Of a DNA stretch of 64,000 nt, positions 37,975 through 59,867 are shown piece after piece. The notes under the pieces are model-generated. The model worked only from the letters and a program-made list of their open reading frames with translations, searched no databases and was not told where the DNA came from. The translations under genes and the position numbers were made by a program. Source of the stretch: Nitrosopumilaceae archaeon (GTDB lineage: Archaea; Thermoproteota; Nitrososphaeria; Nitrososphaerales; Nitrosopumilaceae); contig OZ242376.1 in assembly GCA_965209085.1 (NCBI GenBank), positions 608,001 to 672,000 of the forward strand, in the 5' to 3' direction. Positions within the stretch are counted from its first letter, which is position 1; each line of letters starts with the position of its first letter.

Positions 37975-39024
37975 TTATGATGATGCACCGGCCGGCTCTA
38001 AACCGCGCGCAATTCTTACAGCATCAGCTAAACCATCAGCATATCCTATGCACAAAACGGCAAGATCCTCCTCTCCCTGCTCTAAAAACCGTTCAGCATC
38101 CTTGGCATACCTTGAGGCACCATCAAGCACCTCTGCAAGATGTGCATCATTTTTGCACAATTTTTCAGCATCCTTTATCGCCTGTTCAATCATTGGCACG
38201 TATTTTTTTAACATTTGCTTTGGAATACTCGGGGTAAACTCTGAATTATCTGATGGCTCATCAAGGCATTCGGCAAGAGCTTTGATTGAATCTGACTCTG
38301 TAAAATGCAAACTTCCCGGAATGATTATTGCATGCGGTGGGGCGCCAAATTCAACTTTTGCAAGAGTTGATATCTTCCCCGCAGTTATCTTTTGATCCGT
38401 ACCCCCTATCCTTGATGCCACCATGCAAAAAATTCCATCCCCTGCTGCCCCCCGGCGCTGGCCATTTTCAGTATCCTGGAGAATCCTCAGCGCATTTGCC
38501 GGATTTAAAAAATACCCCTTATCCTGGTTGTATTCAAGTAACAGTATGGTATGCGAGCCTTGGACCATATTTTTGTATATTGTATAATAGGGGGTGGTAT
38601 ACTGGCCGGCATTATCCATCATGGTGACCATCCTGCCCACCTTGTACTGGTGCAGACCGCACTCGCCTATCATTGCAGTTAATGCCGAAGCTCCATGAAT
38701 GGTGCGAGCCTTTATTCCCAATAATGCTGCCCTTACGCGCAGCTCTATATGCGTGGTTGCAGCATACGAATCACCCCATGAAATCAGGGATACCGTACCT
38801 TTTTTTGCCTTCTCTAAAATCATGCCGCCATCCTCAACTGCCCATCTTTTTACAGCATGTGTTTTACCTGGTGCAATTTTTTCAATCTCATCAAAGTATT
38901 CGGCATCCGTGGGACTTGTAAACTGTTCTACAAATACAGCATCTGATTCCAGTATTGCATTTTTTGCCTGCAATGTCAGCGATTTTACCCCGCAGAGTCC
39001 AGCTCCTATAAACCAGAGGGTCAT
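37975..39024 (-). CDS. dph5: Diphthine synthase with C-terminal DUF357-like domain
   Basis: LWFIGAGL, EQFTS, GDSYAATTHIEL, IHGASALTA, GLHQYKVGR, HTILLLE, FGAPPHAIIIPGSLHFTE; C-terminal AVLCIGYADGLADA. Confidence 0.92.
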   Translation of the reverse strand: MTLWFIGAGLCGVKSLTLQAKNAILESDAVFVEQFTSPTDAEYFDEIEKIAPGKTHAVKRWAVEDGGMILEKAKKGTVSLISWGDSYAATTHIELRVRAALLGIKARTIHGASALTAMIGECGLHQYKVGRMVTMMDNAGQYTTPYYTIYKNMVQGSHTILLLEYNQDKGYFLNPANALRILQDTENGQRRGAAGDGIFCMVASRIGGTDQKITAGKISTLAKVEFGAPPHAIIIPGSLHFTESDSIKALAECLDEPSDNSEFTPSIPKQMLKKYVPMIEQAIKDAEKLCKNDAHLAEVLDGASRYAKDAERFLEQGEEDLAVLCIGYADGLADAVRIARGLEPAGASS

Positions 39025-40139
39025 TTCTTTTTTTTATCGTGCAGCCGTTTCAAGTTGCCTAGCACGCATTTTAAGACCTCTATTCCGCGAAGATACTCAT
39101 TTATCGAGACTGATTCATTGACAGTATGCGATGCGTGCGGGTCCCCAGGTCCGTACGTGACAACCGGTATGTTAAACCTGTTTCCAACCACGTTCATATC
39201 CCCGGTACCGGTCTTGCGTATAAGCTGGATTCTATTGACATTAGCAGCTGCTGCACTCAGATTAAATGCGCGAACCAGGGGTGAGTTATGGTCTGCCTCA
39301 AAGGGTTCAGTCTCATCAAGTATGGAATGAAACGCCTCAACGCCCCTCTCCTTTGATGCAGACTGGACAGCATTTGAGACCTGCTCCTCTATCTGCCCGC
39401 AGCTTGTTCCAACGGGGATGCGTATGTCTATTGTAGCGCGGCACTCTCCGGGGGTTACATTATGACTTGTACCTCCATTTATCTCAGTCAAGGTGGCAGT
39501 AACTGCCTGCCATTTGGCAGTATCCTCATCCATATTCTCAACATTCTCCTTTATGCGTTTGACAAAATACACAGCCTCCTCTATGGCGTTCTTTGAGAGC
39601 CACGGGGCACTGGCGTGCGAGCTATCCGGCGCCTTTATGCGCAAACTTGTGGCAAGCCTTCCCTTGTATGCAATGGTGACTTTGCCCGTACCGCTAGGCT
39701 CGCCAAATATTGCATAATCAATGTCGAGCTTTTTTGATGCAATATTTTTAATTCCAGTGGCGCTTCCCTCCTCATCCACGGCTCCGACAAACATTACAGT
39801 ACCCATGTTCTCATCAATGGATGCTGCTGCAAACAGCATTGCCATCAGGGGGGCTTTGGCATCAGAGGCGCCGCGGCCAAACAATCTATCCTTATCTCTT
39901 TTGACTGTAATTTTACCCGGAACTGTATCCATATGACCGCACAGCATTATGGTAGGTGAGCCGTTCCCCTTTACTGCCAAAACATTGCCCACATCATCTG
40001 TGCGTATGTCATGAAATCCCAAATCAGTACACACTCTTGCAATATATTCTGCCATGGGTTTTTCTGCAAGTGATGGCGTGTACAATCCAAGGGTGTGGAT
40101 GAGCGCCTTTACTGCAAAATCATCTGTTAGATTTGACAA
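39021..40139 (-). CDS. lysK: [LysW]-lysine/[LysW]-ornithine hydrolase (M20 peptidase)
   Basis: CGHMDTVPG, GRGASDAK, VDEEG, GEPS, HAS, YGPGD..SHT motifs; lys operon context. Confidence 0.92.
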   Translation of the reverse strand: MSNLTDDFAVKALIHTLGLYTPSLAEKPMAEYIARVCTDLGFHDIRTDDVGNVLAVKGNGSPTIMLCGHMDTVPGKITVKRDKDRLFGRGASDAKAPLMAMLFAAASIDENMGTVMFVGAVDEEGSATGIKNIASKKLDIDYAIFGEPSGTGKVTIAYKGRLATSLRIKAPDSSHASAPWLSKNAIEEAVYFVKRIKENVENMDEDTAKWQAVTATLTEINGGTSHNVTPGECRATIDIRIPVGTSCGQIEEQVSNAVQSASKERGVEAFHSILDETEPFEADHNSPLVRAFNLSAAAANVNRIQLIRKTGTGDMNVVGNRFNIPVVTYGPGDPHASHTVNESVSINEYLRGIEVLKCVLGNLKRLHDKKKK

Positions 40140-40988
40140 TTATTTTCCAGCTCCTGCCGCATACTCTATCATGAGTTTTGCAATATCCACCCCGCATACG
40201 CGCACGGTATTTTTAAACTCGGTGGTATTGTTCACCTCGTGCACCAAAAGACCGCGCTCACTCTCCATTAGATCAACACCTACAATATTCCCCCCGACTG
40301 CCTCTTTTGCCTTTATGCAAATATTTTCCATCTCTGATGTTACAGGACATTTCTCAGCTCTTCCGCCAAGTGACATGTTTGTCTTCCACTCACCTGTCCC
40401 CGAATACCGGTATATTGCAGCCACTACGCTGTCTCCTATAACTATGGCACGTATGTCCCTCTCTGGGCGTTTGACAAACTCTTCAAGATAGTGTATCTGG
40501 TATATGGGGTGGAGGTTTTCGCGCGCATCAAGTATTGCATCAGCTGATTCAGCATCCTGCACCTTTGCAACCATGCGGCCCCAGCTGCCAACAGTCGGCT
40601 TTGAGACTATGGGGTATCCTCGCATCTCCATAGTCTCAATGGCGCCTGATTTTGAAAACGCAACATCAGCTTTTGGAGTTGGAACATTGTATTTGCGAAG
40701 CAGCATGTGCGAGTAGAGTTTGTTCCCAGCATAAATGCCAGTCTTTAAGGGGTTTATCACCTTGCATCCTGCCCCTTCAAGCGCAGCTGTTGCATGGACA
40801 TTTCTGTAATAGCTGACGCATCTTTGCAAAACAACGCCATACTCTGGAGCATCCGCATCCAAATCAAAATGCTCTTCTCTGCAATCTCTCATGCAAACTG
40901 TAATGTTGGATTTTTTTGAAGCCTCTGCAAGGGATTTTTCCTCCCACCGTACCGTATCGTACAGGACTGTGACCCCCTGATAGGTCAC
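40140..40988 (-). CDS. lysX: Alpha-aminoadipate--LysW ligase (ATP-grasp, RimK family)
   Basis: RWEEK, LQRCVS, KPTVGSWGR, RDIRAIVIG, WKTN, EVNNTTEFKNT (Asn-Thr, LysX-type signature). Confidence 0.9.
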   Translation of the reverse strand: MTYQGVTVLYDTVRWEEKSLAEASKKSNITVCMRDCREEHFDLDADAPEYGVVLQRCVSYYRNVHATAALEGAGCKVINPLKTGIYAGNKLYSHMLLRKYNVPTPKADVAFSKSGAIETMEMRGYPIVSKPTVGSWGRMVAKVQDAESADAILDARENLHPIYQIHYLEEFVKRPERDIRAIVIGDSVVAAIYRYSGTGEWKTNMSLGGRAEKCPVTSEMENICIKAKEAVGGNIVGVDLMESERGLLVHEVNNTTEFKNTVRVCGVDIAKLMIEYAAGAGK

Positions 40989-41152
40989 TGTCCCCAGTCC
41001 TCGCCTACACTCTGTGCCGGTTTTAGGATGAATTTGTCCCCATCCTTTCTCAACTCAAAGCTTGCGCCGCACTCGGGGCAGGTGGTAATCTCGCCTGCCA
41101 TCGAATCTGAAGGTATTGAGATATCTGCATCACATTCTTCACATTTTGCCAA
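40985..41152 (-). CDS. lysW: LysW amino-group carrier protein, 55 aa, C-terminus EDWGQ (not in ORF track)
   Basis: Hand translation from TTG at 41152: MAKCEECDADISIPSDSMAGEITTCPECGASFELRKDGDKFILKPAQSVGEDWGQ*. Two CxxC motifs; stop overlaps the lysX start (GTGA). Confidence 0.93.
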   Translation of the reverse strand: MAKCEECDADISIPSDSMAGEITTCPECGASFELRKDGDKFILKPAQSVGEDWGQ

Positions 41153-41153
41153 T

Positions 41154-42341
41154 CTATTCACCACCGTTTGAGCGTCTCTTATCGCCTATTATCTTTTTTT
41201 CCACCCTCTCATCAAGTGGTATGTCTATGAGATCGCCCATTCTAAGATCTTTAAGCCCAGCTGCTAACCGTTTTGCCGACTTTGCATCAGCATCAAGACC
41301 CAACATGGACAAAAGATATGCAGACCCTGTCTTTCCTGCCAGCTCGCCAAATACTATTCTTCTGTGGTTGCCAACGGTTCTAGGGGGTATGGGCTCATAA
41401 GCTGCTGGATTTTTCAAAATGGCAGCTAGGTGCGTACCAGCTTTATGTTTGTATGCTGATGATCCGACAATGGGTTTTGAATCATAGGGCGCAATTTTGG
41501 TATAATCCTCTATGAGGCGCGATAAATCCTGCAGCATGTCAAGTCGGAAATCATTTGGGGATTTAAACAGGTATGTCAGACCCACTGCAACCTCAGCTAG
41601 TGCGGGAATTCCTGTTCTCTCGCCAATGCCGTCAATTGTAGTGTGTATCTGGCTGACTCCTGCCTCGCATGCGGCAAACGCGTTTGCAAGTGCAAATCCC
41701 ATATCGTTGTGAGCGTGCACGTCCAGGGCGACATTTGTAATTTTGCGCACCCTGCTTACAAAATTATACATTCCGCGCGGCCGCAGTATCCCGACAGTAT
41801 CTGGAAGACTGATGCGGTCAACTCCGGCTTTGGTTATGGTGCGGCACATTTTATCCATGAATTCCGGTTCTGCCCGACTTCCATCCTCTATTGTAAACCG
41901 TATTTTAAGACCGTGTGATTTTGCATACTCTACTGTATCAACTGCCCTCTCCAGGGCCTGCTCTTGCGTTATTCTCAGTTTGTCGCGCAAATGCACTTTT
42001 GATATTCCAAGGTATGCTGCCACCCATTTTGCATCACAGTCAAGGGATACGTCAATATCTTCGCGCAATGCCCTGCCATGGGATACGATATCTGCACTCA
42101 GTCCCTGTTTGATTATAGTCTTTACTGCTTTTTTATGATCATTTGATATCACAGGAGATATCTCTATTTGATCAACTCCAAAGTAATCAAGCATCCATGC
42201 TATCTGTATGCGCTGTTTGTTTGTAAATGAAACCCCGGGGTGCTGCTCACCTTCCCGCAACGTACTATCTAGCACTGATATTTTTTTTTGGTTTGAATCG
42301 TATTCATTGTATGCATCCGCATACATGTTTGGATTTTCCAT
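41154..42341 (-). CDS. lysS: Homocitrate synthase (LeuA/HMGL-like family)
   Basis: LDSTLREGEQ, LPDTVG, HAHNDMG, GIGERTG, HKAGTH; start at ATG 42341 or GTG 42353. Confidence 0.85.
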   Translation of the reverse strand: MENPNMYADAYNEYDSNQKKISVLDSTLREGEQHPGVSFTNKQRIQIAWMLDYFGVDQIEISPVISNDHKKAVKTIIKQGLSADIVSHGRALREDIDVSLDCDAKWVAAYLGISKVHLRDKLRITQEQALERAVDTVEYAKSHGLKIRFTIEDGSRAEPEFMDKMCRTITKAGVDRISLPDTVGILRPRGMYNFVSRVRKITNVALDVHAHNDMGFALANAFAACEAGVSQIHTTIDGIGERTGIPALAEVAVGLTYLFKSPNDFRLDMLQDLSRLIEDYTKIAPYDSKPIVGSSAYKHKAGTHLAAILKNPAAYEPIPPRTVGNHRRIVFGELAGKTGSAYLLSMLGLDADAKSAKRLAAGLKDLRMGDLIDIPLDERVEKKIIGDKRRSNGGE

Positions 42342-42357
42342 AAAGTTATTCACAGAA

Positions 42358-42423: not shown

Positions 42424-42840
42424 TTATACCGTGCGCAGTATTATCACAGTATTTGTATCAGATACGCCTGTAACTTTGCGCAGCGCATCAATGCTGCCGT
42501 TTAATGATGCAATGTTTTCTGCACTCATTATTACTGCAATATCATACTGTCCGGTAATTTCATAGACTGTGCGAATATCGGATAGTTTTTTTAATTTTTT
42601 TGAAACAAGCGCAGTATCAGCTGCTGAATCAACTGAGACTAAAACTATGGCCTTTGTTGAATTTGCATCATCCTGCTCTACGGTAAACCGCCTTATTGTA
42701 CCTGCATCCTGCATATTTTTTATGCGCCGTCTAACTGCTGTCTCTGAGAGTCTTGTTGCCTCCCCTATAGAGGATACTGATTCGCGGGAATTGTTACTAA
42801 GAATCTGCAGTATTTTTTTGTCAGTTGAATCATTTTGCAT
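42424..42840 (-). CDS. lysM: Lrp/AsnC-family regulator LysM
   Basis: DSTDKKILQIL..NSR, LSETAVRRRIKNM HTH, YEITGQYDI; likely start ATG 42840 overlapping the lysJ end. Confidence 0.88.
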   Translation of the reverse strand: MQNDSTDKKILQILSNNSRESVSSIGEATRLSETAVRRRIKNMQDAGTIRRFTVEQDDANSTKAIVLVSVDSAADTALVSKKLKKLSDIRTVYEITGQYDIAVIMSAENIASLNGSIDALRKVTGVSDTNTVIILRTV

Positions 42841-44008
42841 TCTGTCTTTCCTCCTCCATTGATAACAGCTCATCAAGTATGCCTAAAACCTTTTGCACTT
42901 GCACCTGCGAGATTGAAAGCGGCGGAAGAAAACGCAGTACGTTTCTTCCGGAATACAGCAACAGTACGCCTTTTTTTATACCATCCATGAGAATATCCTT
43001 TACATCAAATTTCAACTCTACGCCAATCATCAGCCCCATGCCGCGCACCTCTCTGATTATGGAATGTTTTTTTGCCAGCTTTTTTAAACCGTCAATTAAA
43101 ATCCCTCCAACGAATGCAGCATTATCTATTAGAGCATCCTCTTTAAGCGATGTAATTGCAGCACTAGCTGCGGCACACGCAAGCGGATTTCCGCCAAACG
43201 TCGAGGAGTGCTCGCCTTTTGACATTGATGCAATAATTTCAGGTTTTACAAGAGTTGCCCCCATTGGAACCCCGCCTGCAATTCCTTTAGCAATGCATAA
43301 AATATCCGGTATGGTATTCCAGTGCTCGCATGCCCACATGCGCCCCGTACGGCCAAGACCGCACTGTATCTCATCAAAGACTAGCAACGCTCCTCTCTTA
43401 TCGCATATTTTCCGTGCCTCTTGTAAAAATCCCTCAGGAGCTACATGAATTCCACTCTCTCCCTGGATTGGCTCCATTATCACCATTGCAGTCTCATCAT
43501 TTACTGCATTTTGCAGCGCATCTGTATTGCCAAAGGGCACAAACTCGACTTTATCAACTAGGGGTGCAAAGCTTTTCCTATACTTTGGATTAAACGTCAG
43601 TGAGAGCGCCCCCATGGATTTTCCATGATATGATCCCCTCATTGCAACCATGTGTTTCTTACCTGTATACTTGCGGGCAAATTTTATGGCAGCCTCTACA
43701 GCTTCGGCCCCGCTGTTGTTTAGGTGAACCTGTGATAGGCCCTCCGGCGCCATTGAAATCAGTTTTTTCAAAAACCGCAGGCGGGTGGTATTATACATTG
43801 AGCCGTGCACGGTGATAATCTCATCCAACTGTTCCCGGAGCGCCTTTACAACGCGCTCGTTTCTATGACCAACAAGGGCTACGCCATACCCGCCCATGCA
43901 GTCGATGTATTCTTTTCCACTCTCATCCCAGACGATGGAGCCTTTGCCTTTGCGTATTGTAACTGGAAATTTCTGATACAAATTTCCCATAAATTCCTCC
44001 TCACTCAT
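42830..44008 (-). CDS. lysJ: [LysW]-aminoadipate/glutamate semialdehyde transaminase (class III aminotransferase)
   Basis: NSGAEAVEAAIK, SYHGKS, MEPIQGESG, FDEIQCGLGRTG, AKGIAGG, HSSTFGGNP; start ATG 44008 in an ATGA overlap with lysZ. Confidence 0.92.
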   Translation of the reverse strand: MSEEEFMGNLYQKFPVTIRKGKGSIVWDESGKEYIDCMGGYGVALVGHRNERVVKALREQLDEIITVHGSMYNTTRLRFLKKLISMAPEGLSQVHLNNSGAEAVEAAIKFARKYTGKKHMVAMRGSYHGKSMGALSLTFNPKYRKSFAPLVDKVEFVPFGNTDALQNAVNDETAMVIMEPIQGESGIHVAPEGFLQEARKICDKRGALLVFDEIQCGLGRTGRMWACEHWNTIPDILCIAKGIAGGVPMGATLVKPEIIASMSKGEHSSTFGGNPLACAAASAAITSLKEDALIDNAAFVGGILIDGLKKLAKKHSIIREVRGMGLMIGVELKFDVKDILMDGIKKGVLLLYSGRNVLRFLPPLSISQVQVQKVLGILDELLSMEEERQNAK

Positions 44009-44808
44009 TGCTCTATCACCGTGCATTCCCTGTGATTAAGAGCAGCTGAGATTGGATTTTCCCTCTTGCCGTTTGCAATCAGTGCCTCGCCCACGCCCAT
44101 TTCAATTGCCTCAGTTGATGCCAATATTTTTTTTTCCATTCCAGGACCAATTGTGGGTATAATCTCTTTTGCGCGCTTTAAATTCAGATGCTTTACAAGA
44201 TTTTTCTCACCATCCAACAATCCGTCCACGTTTGTGATGAAAATGACGCATTTTGATTTTGTAGCACCTGCAATGTATGCTGCCGCCCTGTCCCCGTCCA
44301 CGTTTAAAAAATCCGACTCCTCACTTGCTGCCACAGGTGAGATTACGGGGACCATTTTATTTTCCACCAGATATTTTAAAAAATTGGAATTTACCCCAGT
44401 TATCCTGCCAGTATATCCGCCATCAATTGCCTGCTTTCTCCCCTTTTCGTTTACGATGAGCAGCCGTTTTTTGCGCTCTGCCTGTATCAGGCGTCCGTCA
44501 ATTCCTGAGAGTCCGACTGCGTTTATGCCGTTTTTCTGCAAAATCCGCACAATGTTTTTGCCAATGCGGCCTGCCATTACCATTGTAAATATCTCCGATG
44601 TCCGCATATCCGTATACCTGCTCTTTATTCCGCTCGGGGATGTGACAAATTCCGGTTTCACTCCTAGCTGTAATGATACCCGGCTTACCTCTTTTGCCCC
44701 CCCGTGAACTAAAATTAGACCCTGCTTGAGGGCGGTTTTTTTCATATCATCAATGACTGATTCGTGCAGCTCATCTACAACACTGCCGCCTATCTTTATT
44801 GTAATCAT
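44005..44808 (-). CDS. lysZ: [LysW]-aminoadipate/glutamate kinase
   Basis: MITIKIGGS, LVHGGA, SRYTD, GGYTGRI, LNVDGDRAA, GMEKKI. Confidence 0.92.
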   Translation of the reverse strand: MITIKIGGSVVDELHESVIDDMKKTALKQGLILVHGGAKEVSRVSLQLGVKPEFVTSPSGIKSRYTDMRTSEIFTMVMAGRIGKNIVRILQKNGINAVGLSGIDGRLIQAERKKRLLIVNEKGRKQAIDGGYTGRITGVNSNFLKYLVENKMVPVISPVAASEESDFLNVDGDRAAAYIAGATKSKCVIFITNVDGLLDGEKNLVKHLNLKRAKEIIPTIGPGMEKKILASTEAIEMGVGEALIANGKRENPISAALNHRECTVIEQ

Positions 44809-44812
44809 TATT

Positions 44813-45859
44813 TTACACCGGCGTGAGCGGAGTATATGATATACCCGTTGCCTCATCAAGTCCAAACATTACGTTCATGTTTTGAATTGCAGAGCCTGCC
44901 GCTCCTTTCATAAGATTATCCGATGCTGAGAGTACCACCAAACGGTTGTTATCCCTGTCAATGTCAAAACCAATGTCGCAAAAATTCGAGCCTACAAGGA
45001 ATTTTGGATCCGGAAATTTGTAGAGTCCTTTTTTATCCCGTATCAGCCGAATGTGTCTCTCATTACCGTACGCTGCGCGGTATATCTTCCAAATCTCTTT
45101 TTCATCAATGTCTTTTTTCAAAAACGTATGACTGGTGCACAAAATACCCCGGACCACATCAACTGCGTGCGGACTCATTGCAACGCCAATCTTTTCTCCG
45201 GCAATCTCGCTTAGCTCCTGTTCTATCTCTCCGGTATGTCTGTGCCCTGAGGGTTTGTACGGGCGTATTACCCCCGCCCGCATGGCGTGCGCTGTCCCAG
45301 CACCGGCTCCGGCACCTGATGAGCCTATCTTTGAATCAACAATGATGTGTTTTGTATCAATAATATTCTCGCGAATCAGGGGGGCTAGTGCAAGCGTTGC
45401 AGTTACTGCCATGCATCCGGGGCATGATACAATTTTTGCATCTTTGATTTTATCGCGGTGCAGCTCAGGTATGCCAAAGACTGATTTGGCCAAATAGTCC
45501 GGATGCGGATGCTCCCAGCCGTACCACTTGCCGTAATCGTCCGGATTGTGCAGGCGGTAATCTGCACTCAGGTCAATTACCTTTGTGCCCAAATCGTAGA
45601 ATGTTTTTACAATTCCAGTTGCTGTTCCGTGCGGTACTGCGGTAAATACAACATCGCACTCTGATGATATTTTATCATAGTTTAGATCTGAAAATTTTAT
45701 GTCTGTAAACCCCTTTAGGCTCGGCTGTATCCTGTGAAGATACTCTCCGGCATGCTGCCTGGAAGTTACCGTTACAATCTCAGCTTTTGGGTGGTTTATC
45801 AGCAGCCTTATGGTCTCGCCTCCCACGTATCCTGAAGCTCCAATTATGCCCACTTTCAT
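44813..45859 (-). CDS. lysY: [LysW]-aminoadipyl/glutamyl-phosphate reductase (ArgC family)
   Basis: GASGYVGGE, IDLSADYRL, SCPGC, GSSGAG, HRHTGEI, DNLMKGAAG. Confidence 0.93.
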   Translation of the reverse strand: MKVGIIGASGYVGGETIRLLINHPKAEIVTVTSRQHAGEYLHRIQPSLKGFTDIKFSDLNYDKISSECDVVFTAVPHGTATGIVKTFYDLGTKVIDLSADYRLHNPDDYGKWYGWEHPHPDYLAKSVFGIPELHRDKIKDAKIVSCPGCMAVTATLALAPLIRENIIDTKHIIVDSKIGSSGAGAGAGTAHAMRAGVIRPYKPSGHRHTGEIEQELSEIAGEKIGVAMSPHAVDVVRGILCTSHTFLKKDIDEKEIWKIYRAAYGNERHIRLIRDKKGLYKFPDPKFLVGSNFCDIGFDIDRDNNRLVVLSASDNLMKGAAGSAIQNMNVMFGLDEATGISYTPLTPV

Positions 45860-45905: not shown

Positions 45906-46802
45906 TTGATAAAAAGGCAAGAACTTGATAGCAATTCTAATGAAAAAAGGTTGATTGGATTGAGATCGCAAAAATTTACAAGAGATAAACTGGCTAGTCG
46001 GATGATTGTGGGGGATACTTTGGATTGTTTAGATAAGATACGCAAAAATAGTATAAAATTGATTGTTACGTCTCCACCATATAATATTGGCAAAGAATAT
46101 GAAAAACAGGAACAATTATCAAAATATTTGAAAAATCAAAAACATGTAATAACGAAATGTATTGATAAATTACGCAATGATGGATCAATGTGCTGGCAAG
46201 TTGGAAGTTTTATTGAAAATGGAGGCACCATACCGTTGGATGTGGTATTGTATTCAATATTTACTGATTTGGGTTTAAAGTTGCGTAATAGAGTAATATG
46301 GCATTTTGGTCATGGACTGCATTGTTCTAAAAGATTATCTGGCAGGTATGAAACAATTTTATGGTTCACAAAAACAGATGACTATACATTCAATTTAGAT
46401 CCCATACGCGTACCCTCAAAATATCCAAACAAGCGATATTTTTCAGGTAAGAAAAAAGGTCAGTTGAGCTGCAATCCGTTAGGCAAGAACCCATCTGACG
46501 TATGGGAGATACCAAATGTTAAACACAATCATGTTGAAAAAACAGAACATCCTGCACAATTTCCAGTGGAACTAGTTGAACGGCTAGTATTATCATTAAC
46601 CAACAAAGGCGACACTGTTTTGGATCCATATATGGGATCCGGGTCTAGCGCCATAGCTGCACTAAAACATAACCGTAAAAGTGTCGGTATTGAAAGAGAG
46701 AAAAAATATGTACAGATTATGAATAAACGATTAACGCTACTAGGTCAAAATAAGCTAGAAACACGACCTATGAATAAGCCAATACATGAGCCAAACAAGT
46801 GA
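45906..46802 (+). CDS. Site-specific DNA methyltransferase (N6_N4 family, beta class, probably m4C)
   Basis: VTSPPYNIG precedes HPAQFP and DPYMGSGS (beta order); GKNPSDVW. Confidence 0.9.
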   Translation: MIKRQELDSNSNEKRLIGLRSQKFTRDKLASRMIVGDTLDCLDKIRKNSIKLIVTSPPYNIGKEYEKQEQLSKYLKNQKHVITKCIDKLRNDGSMCWQVGSFIENGGTIPLDVVLYSIFTDLGLKLRNRVIWHFGHGLHCSKRLSGRYETILWFTKTDDYTFNLDPIRVPSKYPNKRYFSGKKKGQLSCNPLGKNPSDVWEIPNVKHNHVEKTEHPAQFPVELVERLVLSLTNKGDTVLDPYMGSGSSAIAALKHNRKSVGIEREKKYVQIMNKRLTLLGQNKLETRPMNKPIHEPNK

Positions 46803-47295
46803 AAATCAAAGAGAGATATTCCAATCTAAAGGGGGTTTGAATGTAAGATACCTTGAAATTTCAAAAGAAATCGACATGGTGATATCTAACCGGGAGAAAA
46901 ATAAGATTGGCAGGAAATACCATGATCCAAAAAAACTGTACACGGATTTTAAAACAGCATTCGCAAAATTTGAATATGCAAAAGCGTTTTTGTCACTCAA
47001 AAAACAACTGAAATATCCAGCACGGGGAAATGGCAAGCAGATGGATTATTCCAAAGTTTGTGCGCTCAAAGTTCAATTTGGCAAATATTCATTCATGTTT
47101 TATGGCATGTCCAAATTTCAGCAGGCATGTGATGAAAATTTGATAAATGTCAGAATTGAAATTGTCGCAACTTGTGAGATGAACAAAGAGATGTCCGGCG
47201 GTGTGTCATATGAAGAACAGTTGGTAAATGACATAACGGCACCACATAGGCATTACCCATCAGCTCCTGTAAAGATTATAATGATAGAGCCATAG
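46786..47295 (+). pseudogene. Degenerate BglII/BstYI-like type II restriction endonuclease
   Basis: DYSK..ALKVQFGKYSFMFY and EMSGGVSY..PVKII resemble the BglII-like family; the catalytic E-x-Q reads K-V-Q; overlaps the MTase end. Confidence 0.7.
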
Positions 47296-50346: not shown

Positions 50347-51546
50347 ATGTCTAAAAAAGCGATACTTGCTTTTTCAGGCGGCCTTGATACCTCTGTGGTG
50401 GTAAAATATCTCTCCGAAGAGTACGGTCTTGATACAATTACCCTTACAGTGGATGTCGGACAGCAGGATGATTATCGCAAAGTTGCGGCAAAATCCAAAA
50501 AACTTGGGGCGATAAAACATGTGCACATTGATGCAAGAAATGAATTTGTAACAGATTACGTGTATTTGGCCATACAGGCAAACGCTCTATACCAGAAAAA
50601 ATATTCAATGGCAACTGCCCTTGCACGGCCGCTTATTGCAAAAAAACTGGTTGCCGTTGCCCGAAAAGAAAACGCGTCAGCTTTGGCACACGGGTGCTCT
50701 GGAAAGGGAAACGATCAAGTGCGGTTTGATAATACATTGCATGCGTACTCTAAACTGCCGGTAATTGCGCCGATAAGAGATTTAAACCTTGATAGAAAAA
50801 CAGAGCTTGCATTTGCAAAAAAACACGGCATAAAGATAGATGCGGTGGCAAAAAAATTCAGCATTGATCAAAATCTGTGGGGTCGGGCAATCGAGGGCGG
50901 AATAATGGAGGATGCATCAAATGAGCCCCCCAAGAGTGCGTTTGAATGGGTAAAAATAACTGATGCGCTTAAAAATCCCTCATACGTGCGGATTGGATTT
51001 TTCTGCGGCATACCTGTATCAGTTGACGGTAAAAAGATGAATCCGGTATCTCTTGTGGAATATTTGAATAATAAAGCCGGAGCTGCCGGAGTTGGCATAT
51101 CTGATCACATTGAGGATAGAATCGTTGGGATAAAATCGCGTGAAATCTACGAGGCGCCAGCTGCTGCATGCATAATAGAGGCCCACCGGGATCTTGAAAA
51201 AATGGTCCACACAAAACATCAGACGCGCTTCAAGGGTGCAGTTGATGAGCAGTGGGCCGAGATTGCGTATTCAGGATTGTGGGAGGATCCGCTGCGCAAT
51301 GACCTTGATGCATACCTTGTACAGAGCCAAAAACGCGTCACAGGAGAGGTAAAACTGCGCATGCATTATGGCAGTTTGCGGGTGGTGGGCCGCTCTTCAA
51401 AATATTCCCTATATGATGTTAAATCCTCCACGTACGGGGCAGATTCAACCTTTGATCAGCGTCTAGCTACTGGGTTTGTGACCCTTTGGGGTTTACAGTC
51501 AACAGAAGCTAATAAATTACAAGGTTCAAGGTCAGCAAAAATATGA
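50347..51546 (+). CDS. argG: Argininosuccinate synthase
   Basis: LAFSGGLDTS, ALARPLIA, HGCSGKGNDQVRF, SIDQNLWGR, GIKSREIYEAP. Confidence 0.96.
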   Translation: MSKKAILAFSGGLDTSVVVKYLSEEYGLDTITLTVDVGQQDDYRKVAAKSKKLGAIKHVHIDARNEFVTDYVYLAIQANALYQKKYSMATALARPLIAKKLVAVARKENASALAHGCSGKGNDQVRFDNTLHAYSKLPVIAPIRDLNLDRKTELAFAKKHGIKIDAVAKKFSIDQNLWGRAIEGGIMEDASNEPPKSAFEWVKITDALKNPSYVRIGFFCGIPVSVDGKKMNPVSLVEYLNNKAGAAGVGISDHIEDRIVGIKSREIYEAPAAACIIEAHRDLEKMVHTKHQTRFKGAVDEQWAEIAYSGLWEDPLRNDLDAYLVQSQKRVTGEVKLRMHYGSLRVVGRSSKYSLYDVKSSTYGADSTFDQRLATGFVTLWGLQSTEANKLQGSRSAKI

Positions 51547-51710
51547 ACTGCCCAGAATGTGACGCTTCAATAAATGTCCCAAAAGATGCTGCAACAGGCG
51601 AGATTGTCTCCTGCCCTGACTGCGGAGCTGACTATGAGATATCCATAAAGGACGGTTCTAAAATGGAACTAAAAAAAGCAGAGAGCATAGGCGAAGACTG
51701 GGGAGAGTAA
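51543..51710 (+). CDS. lysW: LysW/ArgW amino-group carrier protein, 55 aa, canonical EDWGE (not in ORF track)
   Basis: Hand translation: MNCPECDASINVPKDAATGEIVSCPDCGADYEISIKDGSKMELKKAESIGEDWGE*; overlaps the argG stop and the argX start. Confidence 0.95.
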   Translation: MNCPECDASINVPKDAATGEIVSCPDCGADYEISIKDGSKMELKKAESIGEDWGE

Positions 51711-52567
51711 TGTCCAAAATCAGCATCATCTTTGATAGACTGCGGATTGAGGAAAAATTACTCTCAAAACAGGCCTTGGATATGGGTCTGCAAGTTGAAA
51801 TGGTCGATGCCAAATCCTCGCATATTAATACTGACAATAAGGCAAATGATTTTGATTTTGGCGATGGCGCACTTGAGAGGTGCATTAGCTATTTTCGCGG
51901 CCTGCATTATACCGCATGCCTTGAATTTTTAAAAATTCCCGTGATAAACAAACTAGCTGTTGCTAGCGTGTGCGGGAATAAAATGATGATGACATTAAAG
52001 CTGGCCGAATATAAAATTCCATCACCTAGGACATTTTTTGCATTTACGCGCGAATCAGCATTGGAGATGGCAGATAATGCCGGATACCCGCTTGTGATAA
52101 AACCGCTTGTTGGAAGCTGGGGGCGGGGCGTTGCAAAAATATCCAACCGTGAAACGCTTGAAGCGGTAACTGAATCCAGGGATATATCTGATGGCGCATA
52201 CGATAGGATATACTATCTGCAGAAAATGGTAAAACGCCCCCCGCGCGATATACGCGTTATCACCGTGGGGGGGCGCGCAATTGCGGCAATGTATAGAAAA
52301 TCATCCGGAGGATTTAAGACAAACGTCGCACTTGGTGCTGACCCTGAACCGTGTAAAATAACAAAAGAGATGGAGGATTTGGCCGTAAAATCCTCTGATG
52401 CAGTGGGCGGCGGAATCTTAGGCGTTGACATGATGGAGGATGAAGAGCGCGGCCTTGTCGTACATGAAGTAAACAATACAGTCGAATTCAAAGGCATATC
52501 AAAGACCACTGAGATAAACATTCCAAAAGAAATGATAGAGTATCTTCTTTATTTCATTCGTAAATAG
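51710..52567 (+). CDS. argX: Glutamate--LysW ligase (ATP-grasp), LysX paralog
   Basis: KPLVGSWGR, RDIRVI, EVNNTVEFKGI (Gly in the specificity motif, ArgX-type); adjacent to argG. Confidence 0.82.
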   Translation: MSKISIIFDRLRIEEKLLSKQALDMGLQVEMVDAKSSHINTDNKANDFDFGDGALERCISYFRGLHYTACLEFLKIPVINKLAVASVCGNKMMMTLKLAEYKIPSPRTFFAFTRESALEMADNAGYPLVIKPLVGSWGRGVAKISNRETLEAVTESRDISDGAYDRIYYLQKMVKRPPRDIRVITVGGRAIAAMYRKSSGGFKTNVALGADPEPCKITKEMEDLAVKSSDAVGGGILGVDMMEDEERGLVVHEVNNTVEFKGISKTTEINIPKEMIEYLLYFIRK

Positions 52568-54496: not shown

Positions 54497-55718
54497 TATA
54501 GTATAAGAAGTTATTAATTACGTTTAACCACTCTGTAACAAAAATTTAATCGCTACGTTTAGATCGCACCAGATTTAAGAGCAAATATGACGCGACAGAA
54601 CAGAATTCCGACAGGCATCGAGTTCATGCCAAACATGAGCATCACATATCTTAGAAATTGTTATGCAAAAGAAAAGATTCCAGTTGCAAAACAGCGTCTT
54701 CTCTCATGGATTAAAAGAAAACAGGACAAAACAATGGAGAAGATTGGCGAGGAGCTTGGCGTAAAAGAGACAACAGTATGCAAATGGCTCATACGGGTAA
54801 TGGAGGATGGACTAGCCTCAAGATACAACATAAAACGTCTTGGCAGGGAATGCCATCTTTCAGAAAAACAGCTTGAAAAACTAACAAAGGATCTGATTGC
54901 CGGACCTGAAAAATGCGGATATAGTCAGTCCGCATGGTCTACTGTAATGGTAACGGATCACATTTGGAAAAAATTCAAGGTACAATATGTCCCACGTTCT
55001 GTACAAAATCTACTCAAACGTCTTGGATTTACAATTCAAAAACCCCGTCAGTACCATCCCAAAGCTGCATCAAAGAGTGAACAGGAACGCTTTAAAAAAA
55101 AACTAGGCACATATTGGCACAAAGAGAGGCACACGGAGCAGTAACTGTATCCATGGATGAGATTCATCTTTACCCAACAACCAATATCCGTAACGCATGG
55201 TACCTCATAGGCAGCAAACCCCAAGTTCCATTAGATCCGACCAGACACAGAATAACCATGTTTGGAGCTTTAAGCAAGGATTCTTTCATATTCGAGTTTT
55301 ACGATAAAGCAAACAAAGACAGTCATTTGGATTTTATAAAAATCCTGGAAAAAGAGTTTGGCCGTGTGACAATAGTGCATGATAATGCATCTTATCATCG
55401 TCACCGTGACGTATTTGAATACATCAAATCTAGAAAAGGACGAATCAGTTTAATTTATCTTCCACCGTATACGCCAGAGCTGAACCCAATAGAAATCCAG
55501 TGGCGTGTTTTACGAAAATGCATATCAAATGGGCATTTTGAATCGATCAGACACCTGAAAAAGAAAATTGACCGGGTCATATTGTCTAATCAGATGAAAC
55601 TTGTCAAACTGCACGATTATCTAATTTTTTAGAAACAATAATGTGGGGTAATTGTTACTATGGAGATTGTATTCGGTGTGTTTGTGATAAAATGTAAATT
55701 ATAAATTCTTATACTATA
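54497..55718 (+). mobile_element. IS630-family element, apparently intact
   Basis: TIRs TATAGTATAAGAA.TTAT at both ends, including TA duplications; encodes a split transposase. Confidence 0.9.
54587..55632 (+). CDS. IS630 transposase (orfA 54587-55144 plus orfB, joined by a -1 frameshift)
   Basis: HTH region in orfA; TTT-A9 at 55091-55102; orfB in the -1 frame has SMDE, HDNASYH, PELNPIE. Confidence 0.88.
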
Positions 55719-55812
55719 TTATCTCCATTTAGATCTAAATATGTTAACTTTTGAAAAATATTTGTGCTAATATAATTACATGGTTTATTAATGTGTGATA
55801 TAAAATCAATAT

Positions 55813-56496
55813 ATGCATGATGATGAATTTAAGAAGGTGTGTATTGAACAGAAATGGAATTCAAATCTTGCACAAGAATATTATGATATAATATCTAAAA
55901 TATTTGATGATGCATTAGAGAATGATGCCGAATTTAATAAAAAATTCATAGATAGACAAAATGAATTTCATCGTACAGCACTTCCGAATTATAACAATTG
56001 GTTAGAATTATGTGAAAAAATAAGAATAAACATTAATGTAAAAAGTGATGAAGTGGATCTAATTTTTCTTATACGTTATTTGATAACAGTGGAGAGTTTG
56101 GCTTCACATTATGCCACTGTACTATACTATGCATGTTACAAAGCATATGATAATAAAAATAAAGCATATCATGAATCATTTAACACCATACACAATTACG
56201 TTTTACTTGGACCCAAGTTAAAATACCTTGAAAATAAGGGTTTAGCAAAATACACCAATAGTATAAATCGCTTTCTTCGTAATCAAATAGGACATATGAC
56301 TTTTAAAATAAATAATGGTAAAATTGAAATTCCTGAAGATCAGTCAGATCAGCATGGTTATAAAAAAGTGAATATAGAACAAATGGGGACTGATTTGGAT
56401 ATGCATATTTTGGCCATGTATGCTGCCATATGGCGTTATTATAGTCGATATTCTAAAGTCCCGTTTTATAATTCTGATTTTATAACTCATTTATAA
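55813..56496 (+). CDS. Hypothetical protein with HEPN-like RxxxxH motif
   Basis: 227-aa AT-rich ORF, apparently helical, containing LRNQIGH. Confidence 0.6.
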   Translation: MHDDEFKKVCIEQKWNSNLAQEYYDIISKIFDDALENDAEFNKKFIDRQNEFHRTALPNYNNWLELCEKIRININVKSDEVDLIFLIRYLITVESLASHYATVLYYACYKAYDNKNKAYHESFNTIHNYVLLGPKLKYLENKGLAKYTNSINRFLRNQIGHMTFKINNGKIEIPEDQSDQHGYKKVNIEQMGTDLDMHILAMYAAIWRYYSRYSKVPFYNSDFITHL

Positions 56497-56497
56497 T

Positions 56498-56575
56498 AGA
56501 CTTCATGCATAATGGGCCAAATTCACAATTTTTACGAATAAAAATGATGGATTTTAATGATTATGCATGAGGTCT
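56498..56575. mobile_element. 78-bp MITE, copy 2
   Basis: Two substitutions relative to copy 1; target duplication AAT. Confidence 0.85.
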
Positions 56576-56773
56576 AATATCATATTTTAGATTAAACAAA
56601 CGAAATCACTCATCTTGCCATTTGTTTGGAGATAATCTGTCAGATGTGACATCTTGGCTCAAACTGTTTATTTTTATCATCTGGCTTTAAAAATCACATC
56701 CAGTACGAGCTAATTATAAAGCTAGAAATACGATAAATTTGATCAAGGCAAATTTTCTCTCAAAAGGTACAGA

Positions 56774-57151
56774 TTACCTAGTTCCAAAATAATCAAAACG
56801 CGTAAAAAATGGAAATACTTTACTTCGTAATCTGCCGATAAATTTTCCAAAATCCAGTGAAAATGCGATAACCGTGGTCTCTAATGTATTTTTTATAGAA
56901 GAATCATGATCAATTGTTTTTATCATCCATCGATCAATAACACATTCGGACAAAACCACAAATCCTGCCCAAGATGCCGTAAAACTCCAAGAAACTAGTT
57001 TGGCGAATGAGAGTCCGATAAAAATTATTGAGTCCATCAACAAAGTTTCTGTTATATTTGGATAGTTGTAGAAACTGTTTTTTGTGAATATTTGGCAAGA
57101 TGGAATCCCCCAACGACCATCTGAAAAACCGTTTGTAGCTTCTAGATCCAT
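56774..57151 (-). pseudogene. Possible decayed membrane-protein gene fragment
   Basis: Hydrophobic stretch IIFIGLSFAKLVSWSFTASWAGFVVL; stops upstream in frame; only a faint MscS-like look. Confidence 0.25.
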
Positions 57152-57238
57152 TTCTCCACCAGTTGTGATGCACTATTGCATTATGCACTACTTTGAATCG
57201 TTTTTTTGTCCTTTTAGTATGTGTAAACAAAAATCAAT

Positions 57239-58532: not shown

Positions 58533-58542
58533 CTAACCATAT

Positions 58543-59662: not shown

Positions 59663-59867
59663 TTGCACGGCCGCGGCGCAGTATATGGAGATAGTGCTCC
59701 GAGATTCTAACTGCGGTAAGCTCTAACAAGTGGATGAAGATGGTTGTGGGGATAATGCCCCGAATGGATATATGTCTCTCATTCTTTAATTGGAAAAATA
59801 GCCCCTAGTGGATACTGTACAAAAATATGGAAAAACGCAAGGAATACTTAAAAAAGAGGCACATGGA
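59663..59867 (+). ncRNA. Candidate IS110 bridge RNA/seekRNA
   Basis: About 200-nt non-coding end with two hairpin-capped internal loops; segments ATGGTT and ATGGATA match the element's own ends; homologous copy at 62226. Boundaries are uncertain. Confidence 0.55.

What the first reader, a model, noticed from the sequence alone, without database searches (positions are those of the whole stretch)
40985..41152. LysW carrier ending in Gln (EDWGQ) at the residue that normally carries the substrate
Seen: an intact, translationally coupled lysW between lysS and lysX ends GAG GAC TGG GGA CAG TGA, while the second lysW (51543) ends EDWGE. Known: in Thermus and Sulfolobus, LysX/ArgX attach the substrate amino group to the gamma-carboxyl of the C-terminal Glu, which Gln lacks. 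Inference: the lysine branch may ligate to the alpha-carboxyl, need deamidation first (LysK hydrolysis could regenerate Glu), or use this LysW as a decoy, regulator or scaffold. Any of these would be different carrier chemistry. I recall EDWGQ paralogs in other thaumarchaea but cannot verify that here.
Basis: partly seen in the sequence, partly recalled or inferred. Interest (0 to 1): 0.72.

Follow-up and report, generated by a model that had tools for sequence, protein, structure and literature searches.

The report
Lysine carrier protein ending in glutamine
The small carrier protein on which this ammonia-oxidising archaeon builds lysine is encoded with a terminal glutamine where the textbook carrier needs a glutamate, and the same variant is conserved across many archaea and bacteria, so an undescribed activation step or a different attachment chemistry must exist.

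Summary
Window 40985-41152 (-) encodes a 55-aa zinc-ribbon LysW ending EDWGQ, coupled to homocitrate synthase upstream and LysX downstream; the second LysW (51543-51710) ends EDWGE. Contigs of four runs show no other letter at the Gln codon.

- **Conservation:** EDWGQ+stop occurs in 178 of 180 genomes sampled from the same family.
- **Not a decoy:** in one related genus it is the only LysW, beside two LysX-type ligases. In another genus both copies end in Gln.
- **Spread:** 74 of 80 further loci from many bacterial and archaeal phyla carry Gln-ended LysW inside lysine clusters.
- **Constraint:** intact tails end only in Glu or Gln. Near-identical carriers differ only at that residue in four independent groups. 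LysX does not co-vary with it.

Best reading, about 0.5: a masked glutamate, deamidated once as PupQ is by Dop, most likely by the pathway's own release hydrolase (LysK here), then used through the normal gamma linkage. Alpha-carboxyl ligation is the main rival. My full-text searches found nothing on it. It is a new variant of a known system, testable by mass spectrometry.

The parts
40985..41152 (-). lysW (lysine-cluster copy): a 55-aa zinc-ribbon amino-group carrier ending EDWGQ
   Evidence: Translation. NF041070 scores 86.1 bits against a cut-off of 75. It aligns end to end with solved LysW chains that end EDWGE.
40988..40990 (-). Terminal Gln codon CAG. Its G is also the first base of the lysX GTG start.
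   Evidence: No other letter in contigs of 4 runs. The same codon is present in 29 of 29 family loci.
40985..40987 (-). TGA stop of lysW, overlapping the lysX start (GTGA overlap)
41154..42353 (-). Homocitrate synthase-like gene (lysS), whose stop lies 1 nt before the lysW start
   Evidence: TIGR02146 scores 369.2 bits, below the equivalog cut-off of 413.55. The context is conserved in relatives.
40140..40988 (-). lysX, an ATP-grasp ligase with the GSWGR motif
   Evidence: TIGR02144 scores 312.5 bits against a cut-off of 275.6. GSWGR is visible in the translation and is invariant in at least 63 of 65 ligases.
39021..40139 (-). lysK, an M20 [LysW]-lysine/ornithine hydrolase and the candidate deamidase. 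Single copy in the genome.
   Evidence: TIGR01902 scores 252.7 bits against 163.1. NF003367 scores 273.3 bits, below its cut-off of 363. Single tblastn hit in the genome.
42424..42876 (-). LysM-like Lrp/AsnC regulator
   Evidence: NF040947 scores 161 bits, below the cut-off of 180.
42830..44026 (-). lysJ/argD aminotransferase
   Evidence: TIGR00707 scores 431.2 bits against 410.05.
44005..44865 (-). lysZ/argB [LysW]-aminoadipate/glutamate kinase. Single copy. The true start is probably about 19 codons inside the ORF.
   Evidence: NF010662 scores 273.2 bits against 194, matching from residue 20. Single tblastn hit.
44813..45859 (-). lysY/argC reductase, single copy
   Evidence: TIGR01850 scores 408.8 bits against 233.6. 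Single tblastn hit.
50347..51546 (+). argG, upstream of the second carrier
   Evidence: ORF. The argG-W-X order is conserved in relatives.
51543..51710 (+). Second LysW (arginine-cluster copy, 'ArgW') ending EDWGE
   Evidence: Translation. NF041070 scores 90.4 bits.
51710..52567 (+). ArgX-type ATP-grasp ligase, 43% identical to LysX
   Evidence: TIGR02144 scores 296.0 bits against 275.6. Identity.

Best explanation
This is a working amino-group carrier protein (LysW) for the aminoadipate route to lysine. It is encoded with a C-terminal Gln in place of the Glu whose gamma-carboxyl normally receives the substrate.

Most likely mechanism, inferred and not shown: the Gln is a masked Glu.
1. The new protein is deamidated once at the side-chain amide. 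This gives the EDWGE form.
2. LysX then loads it with aminoadipate through the usual gamma-glutamyl amide.
3. LysZ, LysY and LysJ act on the tethered substrate, and LysK releases lysine.

Each LysK hydrolysis leaves a Glu, so only newly made carrier needs activation.

The most economical deamidase is the pathway's own release hydrolase, because it already hydrolyses an amide on exactly this carbonyl. That is LysK in this archaeon. In many bacteria it may be a class-II glutamine-amidotransferase-like Ntn hydrolase encoded inside the cluster. The logic is that of PupQ, which Dop deamidates and which Dop also removes from its targets.

Shown here: the gene, its conservation, its status as sole carrier in some genomes, the restriction of the last residue to Glu or Gln, and the absence of co-variation in LysX.

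Inferred: the deamidation itself, the enzyme that performs it, and the gamma linkage.
For: 1. It is functional, not a decoy.
- EDWGQ+TAA/TGA occurs in 178 of 180 genomes of the same family, with reversed-pattern controls at 0. It is present in 29 of 29 fetched family loci and in 46 of 50 database homologues. The other four are 2 read-throughs, 1 adaptor chimera and 1 frameshift.
- In genus g24 one Gln-ended LysW stands with two LysX-family ligases in a single cluster, argG-argX-lysY-lysZ-lysJ-lysM-HCS-lysW-lysX-lysK.
- In g31, 12 of 14 genomes have two EDWGQ matches and 0 of 14 have EDWGE. In two of them both copies were read directly.
- CAA and CAG are both used for the Gln, so the amino acid itself is conserved.

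2. The side-chain carbonyl matters.
- Among the 130 short representatives of the 150 best hits, 84 end DWGE, 20 end DWGQ, 6 have variant tails that still end in E or Q, and 20 have no intact tail. No intact tail ends in any other residue.

3. Glu and Gln interchange easily.
- Four independent groups of equal-length LysW at least 85% identical differ only in the last residue.
- Within genus g13 one genome's second copy ends in Q and another's in E.
- G131 is a natural Q-to-E revertant with an intact cluster.

4. The ligase does not change with the carrier's last residue.
- No LysX column separates 41 Gln-paired from 6 Glu-paired sequences. The single hit was the overlapping codon read in the lysX frame.
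- G131 LysX shows 0 departures from residues that are at least 95% conserved in 35 Gln-paired LysX.

5. LysZ, LysY and LysK are single-copy in this genome. They must therefore serve both the Gln- and the Glu-encoded carrier, which is simplest if both carry the same linkage.

6. In bacterial Gln-type clusters a gene of about 210 aa that starts Met-Cys sits between lysY and lysZ.
- It matches Pfam GATase_4 at 35.7 bits against 23, and distantly resembles EgtC. It is present in 24 of 32 loci where that region is in view.
- In the Glu-type control it is present in 8 of 35 loci.
- None of 5 such bacterial genomes has a LysK over the curated cut-off.

7. Established chemistry and precedent.
- LysX joins the substrate amine to the gamma-carboxyl of the terminal Glu, and E54A in Natrinema ArgW gives arginine auxotrophy (passages of PMC10433800).
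- PupQ is deamidated by Dop, which is also the depupylase (passages of PMC8599861).
Against: - No experiment or mass-spectrometry data were available, so deamidation is not shown.
- If the steady-state pool is Glu anyway, the strict retention of Gln in the lysine copy is hard to explain. Only 1 revertant was seen among 180 family genomes, while the arginine copy mostly keeps Glu. That pattern fits a permanent role for Gln better. Pup shows the same unexplained conservation, however.
- No LysK position distinguishes genomes with Gln carriers from genomes with only Glu carriers (5 against 6 sequences; the 6 separating columns are all heterogeneous).
- M20 hydrolases normally grip the leaving amino acid, which ammonia lacks.
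- The Ntn gene is absent from this genome (0 hits). It also occurs with Glu-ended carriers, so it is not specific to Gln.
- The comparison of 24/32 with 8/35 mixes two collections and related genomes. It is suggestive only.
Confidence: 0.5

Rival explanations
1. Alpha-carboxyl ligation. LysX (and ArgX where its carrier ends in Gln) activates the alpha-carboxylate of the terminal residue, as its relative RimK does on protein S6. The substrate is then a normal peptide extension, the Gln stays Gln for the carrier's whole life, and LysK acts as a carboxypeptidase.
For: - LysX and ArgX also match the RimK-family alpha-L-glutamate ligase model TIGR00768 at 282.7 and 256.4 bits against a cut-off of 143.4.
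- RimK adds Glu to the C-terminus of S6 and makes poly-alpha-glutamate (abstract of PMC10375531 in the listing).
- A permanent Gln would explain its strict conservation in the lysine copy (178 of 180). It could also keep the lysine and arginine carriers apart in genomes that have one of each.
- Q-to-E revertants remain compatible, since Glu also has an alpha-carboxylate.
Against: - The last residue is only ever Glu or Gln, which an alpha linkage does not require.
- The tail is not lengthened to compensate for a linkage three bonds shorter: the tail lengths are the same.
- A single LysZ, LysY and LysK would have to accept both alpha- and gamma-linked substrates, unless the whole lineage is alpha-type.
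- E-to-Q flips at tips in several phyla, with no change in LysX, would each need five enzymes already adapted.
- The insulation argument fails where both carriers, or the only carrier, end in Gln.
Confidence: 0.15
2. Deamidation by a separate amidase encoded elsewhere in the genome, and not by LysK. After that the normal gamma chemistry follows.
For: It rests on the same comparative evidence as the best explanation. No determinant was found in LysK. The clusters of Gln-type and Glu-type archaea contain the same genes, so nothing in the cluster marks a dedicated enzyme.
Against: Repeated E-to-Q flips in distant phyla need an activity that is already present everywhere the pathway exists, and only the pathway's own enzymes meet that condition. 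No candidate was identified here, and I ran no genome-wide profiling.
Confidence: 0.15
3. Direct use of the amide by LysX. The ligase would either phosphorylate the Gln side-chain oxygen with ATP or, with ADP and phosphate, convert the amide to the acyl-phosphate. The substrate amine then displaces ammonia. This is a one-off transamidation without a free Glu intermediate.
For: A side-chain amide oxygen attacking ATP has been proposed for PupQ in Dop (passages of PMC8599861). It needs no extra enzyme, and LysX is the gene translationally coupled to the Gln codon.
Against: I know of no ATP-grasp enzyme that does this (from recall, not searched). LysX shows no residue change between Gln- and Glu-paired forms. 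This rival is purely chemical speculation.
Confidence: 0.08
4. Inert paralogue, decoy, regulator or scaffold, or a sequencing error.
For: None beyond the missing carboxylate.
Against: It is the sole LysW in g24 and in 4 of 5 bacterial genomes searched. It is conserved in 216 of 301 class genomes. Contigs of four runs agree at the codon.
Confidence: 0.02

Closest known systems
LysW/ArgW amino-group carrier proteins of Thermus thermophilus, Sulfurisphaera tokodaii/Sulfolobus and Thermococcus kodakarensis (PDB 3wwl, 3vpb, 5k2m)
   Same: - Size, four-Cys zinc ribbon, acidic tail and the EDWG motif are shared.
- The alignment runs end to end and the protein passes NF041070.
- It is followed by an ATP-grasp ligase with GSWGR and lies in a cluster with lysZ/Y/J/K.
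   Different: The last residue is Gln, not the Glu whose gamma-carboxyl is the attachment point in every characterised system (passages of PMC10433800). The two solved chains whose alignments were printed end EDWGE.
Pup with Dop and PafA (pupylation in actinobacteria)
   Same: - A small protein is ligated through the side chain of its last residue.
- It is encoded with Gln in some lineages and Glu in others.
- The Gln form must be deamidated before ligation.
- The deamidase is the same enzyme that later cleaves the isopeptide (passages of PMC8599861).
   Different: There is no homology. Pup is disordered and its enzymes have the glutamine-synthetase fold. Here the ligase is ATP-grasp and the hydrolase is M20 (or Ntn). 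Deamidation of LysW is a hypothesis, not a result.
RimK and ribosomal protein S6
   Same: LysX belongs to the RimK family (TIGR00768). An amino acid is added to the C-terminal residue of a protein.
   Different: RimK extends the alpha-carboxyl and adds several residues. Characterised LysX uses the gamma-carboxyl once. Which applies to Gln-ended LysW is the open question.
EgtC and other class-II (Ntn) glutamine amidotransferase-type hydrolases
   Same: This comparison concerns only the extra gene of the bacterial Gln-type clusters. It has a Met-Cys start, matches GATase_4 over the cut-off and shows distant EgtC similarity. EgtC cleaves a gamma-glutamyl amide (recalled, not read here).
   Different: It scores far below the EgtC cut-off, 54.7 against 218.65 bits. 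It is absent from this window's genome. Its role in the lysine pathway is inferred from position only.

Membership tests
LysW/ArgW amino-group carrier protein (NCBIfam NF041070; Pfam PF21344) | Profile match over the curated cut-off | tested here: met
   86.1 bits against 75. Homologues carry PF21344.
LysW/ArgW amino-group carrier protein | Protein of about 55 aa with a CxxC...CxxC zinc ribbon | tested here: met
   CEEC...CPEC in the translation.
LysW/ArgW amino-group carrier protein | C-terminal EDWGE motif with a terminal Glu | tested here: not met
   EDWG is present but the last residue is Gln. The motif definition comes from PMC10433800.
LysW/ArgW amino-group carrier protein | Encoded next to a LysX/ArgX ATP-grasp ligase bearing GSWGR, with lysZ/Y/J/K | tested here: met
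LysW/ArgW amino-group carrier protein | Substrate amine bound to the gamma-carboxyl of the last residue | not testable with these tools
   Needs mass spectrometry or NMR of the loaded carrier.
LysX (TIGR02144) for the downstream ligase | Profile match over the equivalog cut-off, and the GSWGR motif | tested here: met
   312.5 bits against 275.6. GSWGR seen.
[LysW]-lysine hydrolase LysK (NF003367) | Profile match over the equivalog cut-off | tested here: not met
   273.3 bits against 363. It does pass the subfamily model TIGR01902, 252.7 against 163.1. Its position after lysX is conserved.
Pup-type 'Gln-masked' ligatable tail (works like; not a member) | Gln converted to Glu before ligation by the de-conjugating enzyme | not testable with these tools
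   Analogy only. Precedent read.

The most novel reading that the evidence does not exclude
Gln-ended LysW is never deamidated. Its ligase attaches aminoadipate (or glutamate) to the alpha-carboxyl, as RimK does. That would be a second, regiochemically distinct kind of carrier-protein amino-acid biosynthesis, running in ammonia-oxidising archaea and many bacteria. In Nitrosopumilaceae the Gln/Glu difference would keep the lysine and arginine carriers chemically separate while they share LysZ, LysY, LysJ and LysK.
Probability: 0.15. Interest if true: 0.9.

Novelty: new variant of a known kind. Interest (0 to 1): 0.75.

Why it matters
In every characterised LysW/ArgW system the terminal glutamate is the attachment point, and replacing it with alanine abolishes the pathway (PMC10433800).

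Here the lysine carrier of globally abundant ammonia oxidisers is encoded without that carboxylate. So is the only carrier of one soil-type genus. So are carriers in Ignavibacteria, Acidobacteriota, Gemmatimonadota, Chloroflexota, Calditrichia, Asgard archaea and other groups.

Either a maturation step is missing from the textbook pathway, which would also affect genome-scale models such as the one in PMC6038301, or a different linkage is used. Both possibilities can be tested directly with a recombinant 55-residue protein, two or three enzymes and a mass spectrometer.

If the release hydrolase doubles as the activating deamidase, this would be a second, independent case of the Pup/Dop logic. 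It would also offer a simple rationale: carriers enter the cycle only where the unloading enzyme is active.

Tried and rejected
**Sequencing error or private mutation.** Rejected.

**Decoy or regulator.** Rejected.

**Constraint from the overlapping lysX start.** GAG TGA would give the same GTG, so the first base of the Gln codon is free. Where there is no overlap, CAA is also used.

**Co-variation of LysX with the carrier's last residue.** The one separating column was the overlapped codon read in the lysX frame, upstream of its start. That is an artefact.

**Co-variation of LysK.** With 5 against 6 sequences, six columns separate the groups but none is homogeneous. The result is uninformative.

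**A dedicated extra gene in the archaeal clusters.** None. Gln-type and Glu-type clusters hold the same genes.

**The bacterial Ntn gene in this genome.** 0 hits.

**Limits of my DNA patterns.** They covered TAA/TGA stops only and so missed TAG. Several second copies end EDWGE+TAG, and one ends EDWGQ+TAG. The tallies are therefore lower bounds. Genus g33 and parts of f2 and f5 remain only partly resolved.

**Expression.** No RNA holder was listed. All runs laid were contigs, so nothing can be said about transcripts.

**Literature searches.**
- 'EDWGQ': 0 papers.
- 'EDWGE': 12 papers, 2 of them relevant.
- LysW + Thaumarchaeota: 3 papers.
- LysW + C-terminal + glutamine: 19 papers; none of the 16 listed titles or abstract starts concerns a Gln-ended LysW.
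- LysW + deamidation: 1 paper, unrelated by title.
- LysW + amino group carrier protein: 9 papers.
- 'Gln', 'glutamine', 'Nitroso' and 'Thaumarch' occur 0 times in PMC12998189.
- LysW/LysK/amidotransferase: none of the 15 listed papers holds 'amidotransferase'.

The founding LysW papers (Horie 2009, Ouchi 2013, Yoshida 2015/2016, recalled only) are not in the searchable library. A Gln-ended sequence in one of their alignments would have escaped me.

**Unpublished genomes.** Genomes G132, G230 and G282 are included in the tallies (family f1, genus g15). Without them the family count would be 175 of 177. No other claim rests on them.
Full report
**What is there**

On the minus strand, 40985-41152 encodes a 55-residue protein with two CxxC pairs and the tail ...SVGEDWGQ.

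- Its TTG start lies one base after the stop of a homocitrate-synthase-like gene.
- Its last codon and stop (CAG TGA) contain the GTG start of a LysX-type ATP-grasp ligase, which LysK follows.
- Upstream on the same strand lie a LysM-like regulator, LysJ, LysZ and LysY.
- About 10 kb away on the plus strand, argG is followed by a second 55-residue LysW ending ...SIGEDWGE and by an ArgX-type ligase.
- Both carriers pass the curated cut-off of NCBIfam NF041070, and both ligases pass TIGR02144. LysZ, LysY and LysJ pass their models. LysK passes only the subfamily model.
- The genome is 1.69 Mb in one contig, with 41.2% G+C. It has exactly two LysW genes, two ligases and a single LysZ, LysY and LysK.

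Contigs of four sequencing runs from four studies show no other letter at the Gln codon; one of those runs may be the assembly's own source.

**The glutamine is old, conserved and used**

All 29 best-matching loci from other genomes of the same family end EDWGQ, always as CAG TGA with the lysX start overlapping. Of 50 database homologues, 46 end EDWGQ. The rest are two read-throughs, one adaptor chimera and one frameshift.

I searched 301 genomes of the class with two DNA patterns.

| Group | EDWGQ + TAA/TGA | EDWGE + TAA/TGA |
|---|---|---|
| All genomes | 216 of 301 | 195 of 301 |
| Own family (f1) | 178 of 180 | 142 of 180 |
| f2 | 4 of 9 | 5 of 9 |
| f3 | 32 of 39 | 12 of 39 |
| f5 | 1 of 4 | 4 of 4 |
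| The deeper families (f7 to f15) | 0 of 64 | 29 of 64 |
| Reversed-pattern control | 0 | 0 |

Both patterns miss TAG stops. Four second copies that I read end EDWGE+TAG, and one ends EDWGQ+TAG. The figures are therefore lower bounds. Three unpublished genomes (G132, G230, G282) are counted in these tallies.

Three observations rule out a decoy.

- **Genus g24.** Of family f3, it has a single LysW in 8 of 8 genomes with the protein query and in 3 of 3 complete genomes with the family HMM. That LysW ends EDWGQ, using CAA or CAG. It sits in one cluster, argG-argX-lysY-lysZ-lysJ-lysM-HCS-lysW-lysX-lysK, with two ligases over the cut-off. This is the Sulfolobus arrangement of one carrier and two ligases, but with a Gln-ended carrier.
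- **Genus g31.** 12 of 14 genomes have two EDWGQ matches and none has EDWGE. In two complete genomes I read both copies: one in the argG-W-X context and one in the HCS-W-X-K context, and both end in Gln.
- **Outside the class.** A pattern chosen to exclude the archaeal 'VGEDWGQ' tail found 91 stretches in a one-genome-per-species collection. Of the 80 listed loci, 74 hold a zinc-ribbon ORF ending EDWGQ plus a true stop, mostly inside lysW-(HCS)-lysX-lysY-lysZ-lysJ clusters. The record titles name Melioribacter roseus, Stygiobacter electus, Thermoflexus hugenholtzii and MAGs of Ignavibacteria, Calditrichia, Acidobacteriota, Gemmatimonadota, Chloroflexota, KSB1, Planctomycetota, Desulfosarcina, Jordarchaeia, Methanosarcinales, Undinarchaeales and others. 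In 4 of 5 such bacterial genomes it is the only LysW.

**What constrains the mechanism**

1. The last residue is only Glu or Gln. Of the 150 best cluster representatives from a search of 1.84 billion proteins, 130 are short. Of these, 84 end DWGE, 20 end DWGQ, 6 have variant motifs that still end in E or Q, and 20 lack an intact tail. The length and carbonyl of the side chain are evidently required.

2. Glu and Gln swap easily.
   - Four independent groups of equal-length carriers at least 85% identical differ only in that residue. Two groups are archaeal and two bacterial.
   - Within genus g13 the second copy is Q in one genome and E in another.
   - G131 is a lone Q-to-E revertant among 67 genomes of its genus, with an intact cluster.

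3. The ligase does not follow the swap. Among 65 distinct ligases found next to a carrier, no real column separates 41 Gln-paired from 6 Glu-paired LysX. The revertant's LysX departs nowhere from residues conserved in 35 Gln-paired LysX. 47 positions, including GSWGR, are invariant in at least 63 of 65.

4. In this genome one LysZ, one LysY and one LysK must serve both carriers.

5. In the characterised systems the substrate amine is joined to the gamma-carboxyl of the terminal Glu. GSWGR recognises EDWGE, and E54A is lethal for the pathway (passages of PMC10433800). The two solved LysW chains whose alignments were printed end EDWGE and align end to end with this protein.

**Best explanation**

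A change of linkage would need LysX, LysZ, LysY, LysJ and the release hydrolase to adapt together. The repeated flips at the tips of the tree, with no change in LysX, argue instead that the enzymes see the same chemical group whichever residue is encoded. The restriction to Glu or Gln says that this group is the side-chain carbonyl.

The simplest account is that Gln is a masked Glu, hydrolysed once before first use. The one activity present wherever the pathway exists, and which already hydrolyses an amide on this very carbonyl, is the release hydrolase. That would make an E-to-Q mutation nearly harmless from the start, which fits the many independent occurrences.

The precedent is exact in logic. 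Pup is encoded with Gln in some actinobacteria and Glu in others, and Dop both deamidates PupQ and removes Pup from its targets (passages of PMC8599861).

**A supporting observation from bacteria**

In 24 of the 32 Gln-type loci where lysY and lysZ are both in view, a gene of about 210 codons lies between them. It starts Met-Cys-Arg-Leu-Leu.

- It matches Pfam GATase_4 (class-II glutamine amidotransferase, Ntn type) over the cut-off, and distantly resembles EgtC.
- None of five such genomes has a LysK over its cut-off.
- By position it is a likely non-orthologous substitute for LysK. By ancestry it is an enzyme that hydrolyses glutamine amides.
- In a control set of Glu-ended carriers from metagenome contigs it occurs in 8 of 35 comparable loci, against LysK in 15.

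The enzyme is therefore not specific to Gln carriers, but Gln carriers are enriched where it is present. The two sets come from different collections and contain relatives, so this is a lead and not a test. The gene is absent from this window's genome. Here LysK is the candidate.

**What speaks against it, and the rivals**

If every cycle regenerates Glu, the encoded Gln matters only for new protein. Yet it is kept in 178 of 180 family genomes while the arginine copy mostly keeps Glu. A permanent role for Gln would explain that better.

The main rival is alpha-carboxyl ligation, which the RimK ancestry of LysX makes chemically plausible (abstract of PMC10375531). Against it stand the Glu/Gln-only rule, the unchanged tail length, the shared downstream enzymes, and the genomes where both carriers or the only carrier end in Gln.

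A separate amidase, or direct activation of the amide by LysX, cannot be excluded. I found no discriminating position in LysK.

My odds:
- Masked Glu converted by the pathway's own hydrolase: about 0.5.
- Separate amidase: 0.15.
- Alpha ligation: 0.15.
- Direct amide use: 0.08.
- Inert protein or error: 0.02.
- The remainder is unassigned.

**Is it known?**

My full-text searches found no paper that mentions EDWGQ or a Gln-ended LysW. A metabolic model of Nitrosopumilus maritimus simply gap-fills the LysW steps (passages of PMC6038301). Annotation pipelines already name these proteins LysW/ArgW.

I can therefore say only that my searches found nothing.

**Verdict**

It is a new variant of a known system, with a hidden step or an altered linkage in a pathway thought to be complete, and it can be tested directly.

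Noticed in passing
L080-L155 (e.g. L109:2957-3598, minus strand), loci: In bacterial lysW clusters a gene of about 210 aa lies between lysY and lysZ. It starts Met-Cys and matches class-II glutamine amidotransferase (GATase_4), with distant similarity to EgtC. It is present in 24 of 32 Gln-type loci and 8 of 35 Glu-type loci where that region is in view. The genomes searched lack a LysK over its cut-off. It is possibly an undescribed replacement for LysK.
   Followed up: partly
window 1-37614 (+): One open frame of more than 12,537 codons runs off the 5' end of the window. It is made of long, near-identical repeats with Bact_surface_Ig-like domains (PF16403), then a Gly-rich stretch, and it ends in a hydrophobic C-terminal segment. 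It looks like a giant surface protein and fills more than half the window.
   Followed up: partly
L068-L070 (genomes G158, G120, G170): Genus g24 has lost the arginine-cluster carrier gene. argG is followed directly by argX, and the single Gln-ended lysW several kb downstream must serve both ligases.
   Followed up: yes
L056 (G131:C47:27500-39500): This is a single natural revertant. Its lysine-cluster lysW ends GAG TGA (Glu) in an otherwise typical cluster, whereas its genus otherwise has Gln in 66 of 67 genomes.
   Followed up: yes
window 54587-60766: A patch of mobile-element genes:
- a DDE_3 transposase split into an HTH ORF (54587-55144) and an overlapping DDE ORF (55114-55632);
- a DDE_Tnp_4 transposase (57406-58515, minus strand);
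- another DDE_3 transposase (59879-60766, minus strand).
All.
   Followed up: no
window 45906-47295 (+): An N6/N4 DNA methylase (PF01555) is followed by an overlapping 169-codon ORF of unknown function, directly beside the lysine cluster. This is possibly a restriction-modification pair.
   Followed up: no
window 62832-63800 (-): A 322-aa protein with a RelA/SpoT nucleotidyltransferase domain (PF04607, 37.1 bits) lies next to the mobile-element patch.
   Followed up: no
window 37975-39024 (-): The gene after lysK overlaps its stop. It combines a TP_methylase domain (diphthine-synthase-like by eye) with DUF357.
   Followed up: no
G304:C1:2541964-2542116 (genome of L091): A second, weaker LysW-like match in an Acidobacteriota genome lies inside a 403-codon open frame. 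It is possibly a fused carrier.
   Followed up: no
proteins P0012 and P0022: Two database homologues read through the stop after EDWGQ into the lysX region (EDWGQW...). The cause may be a TGA-to-TGG difference or a gene-calling artefact.
   Followed up: no
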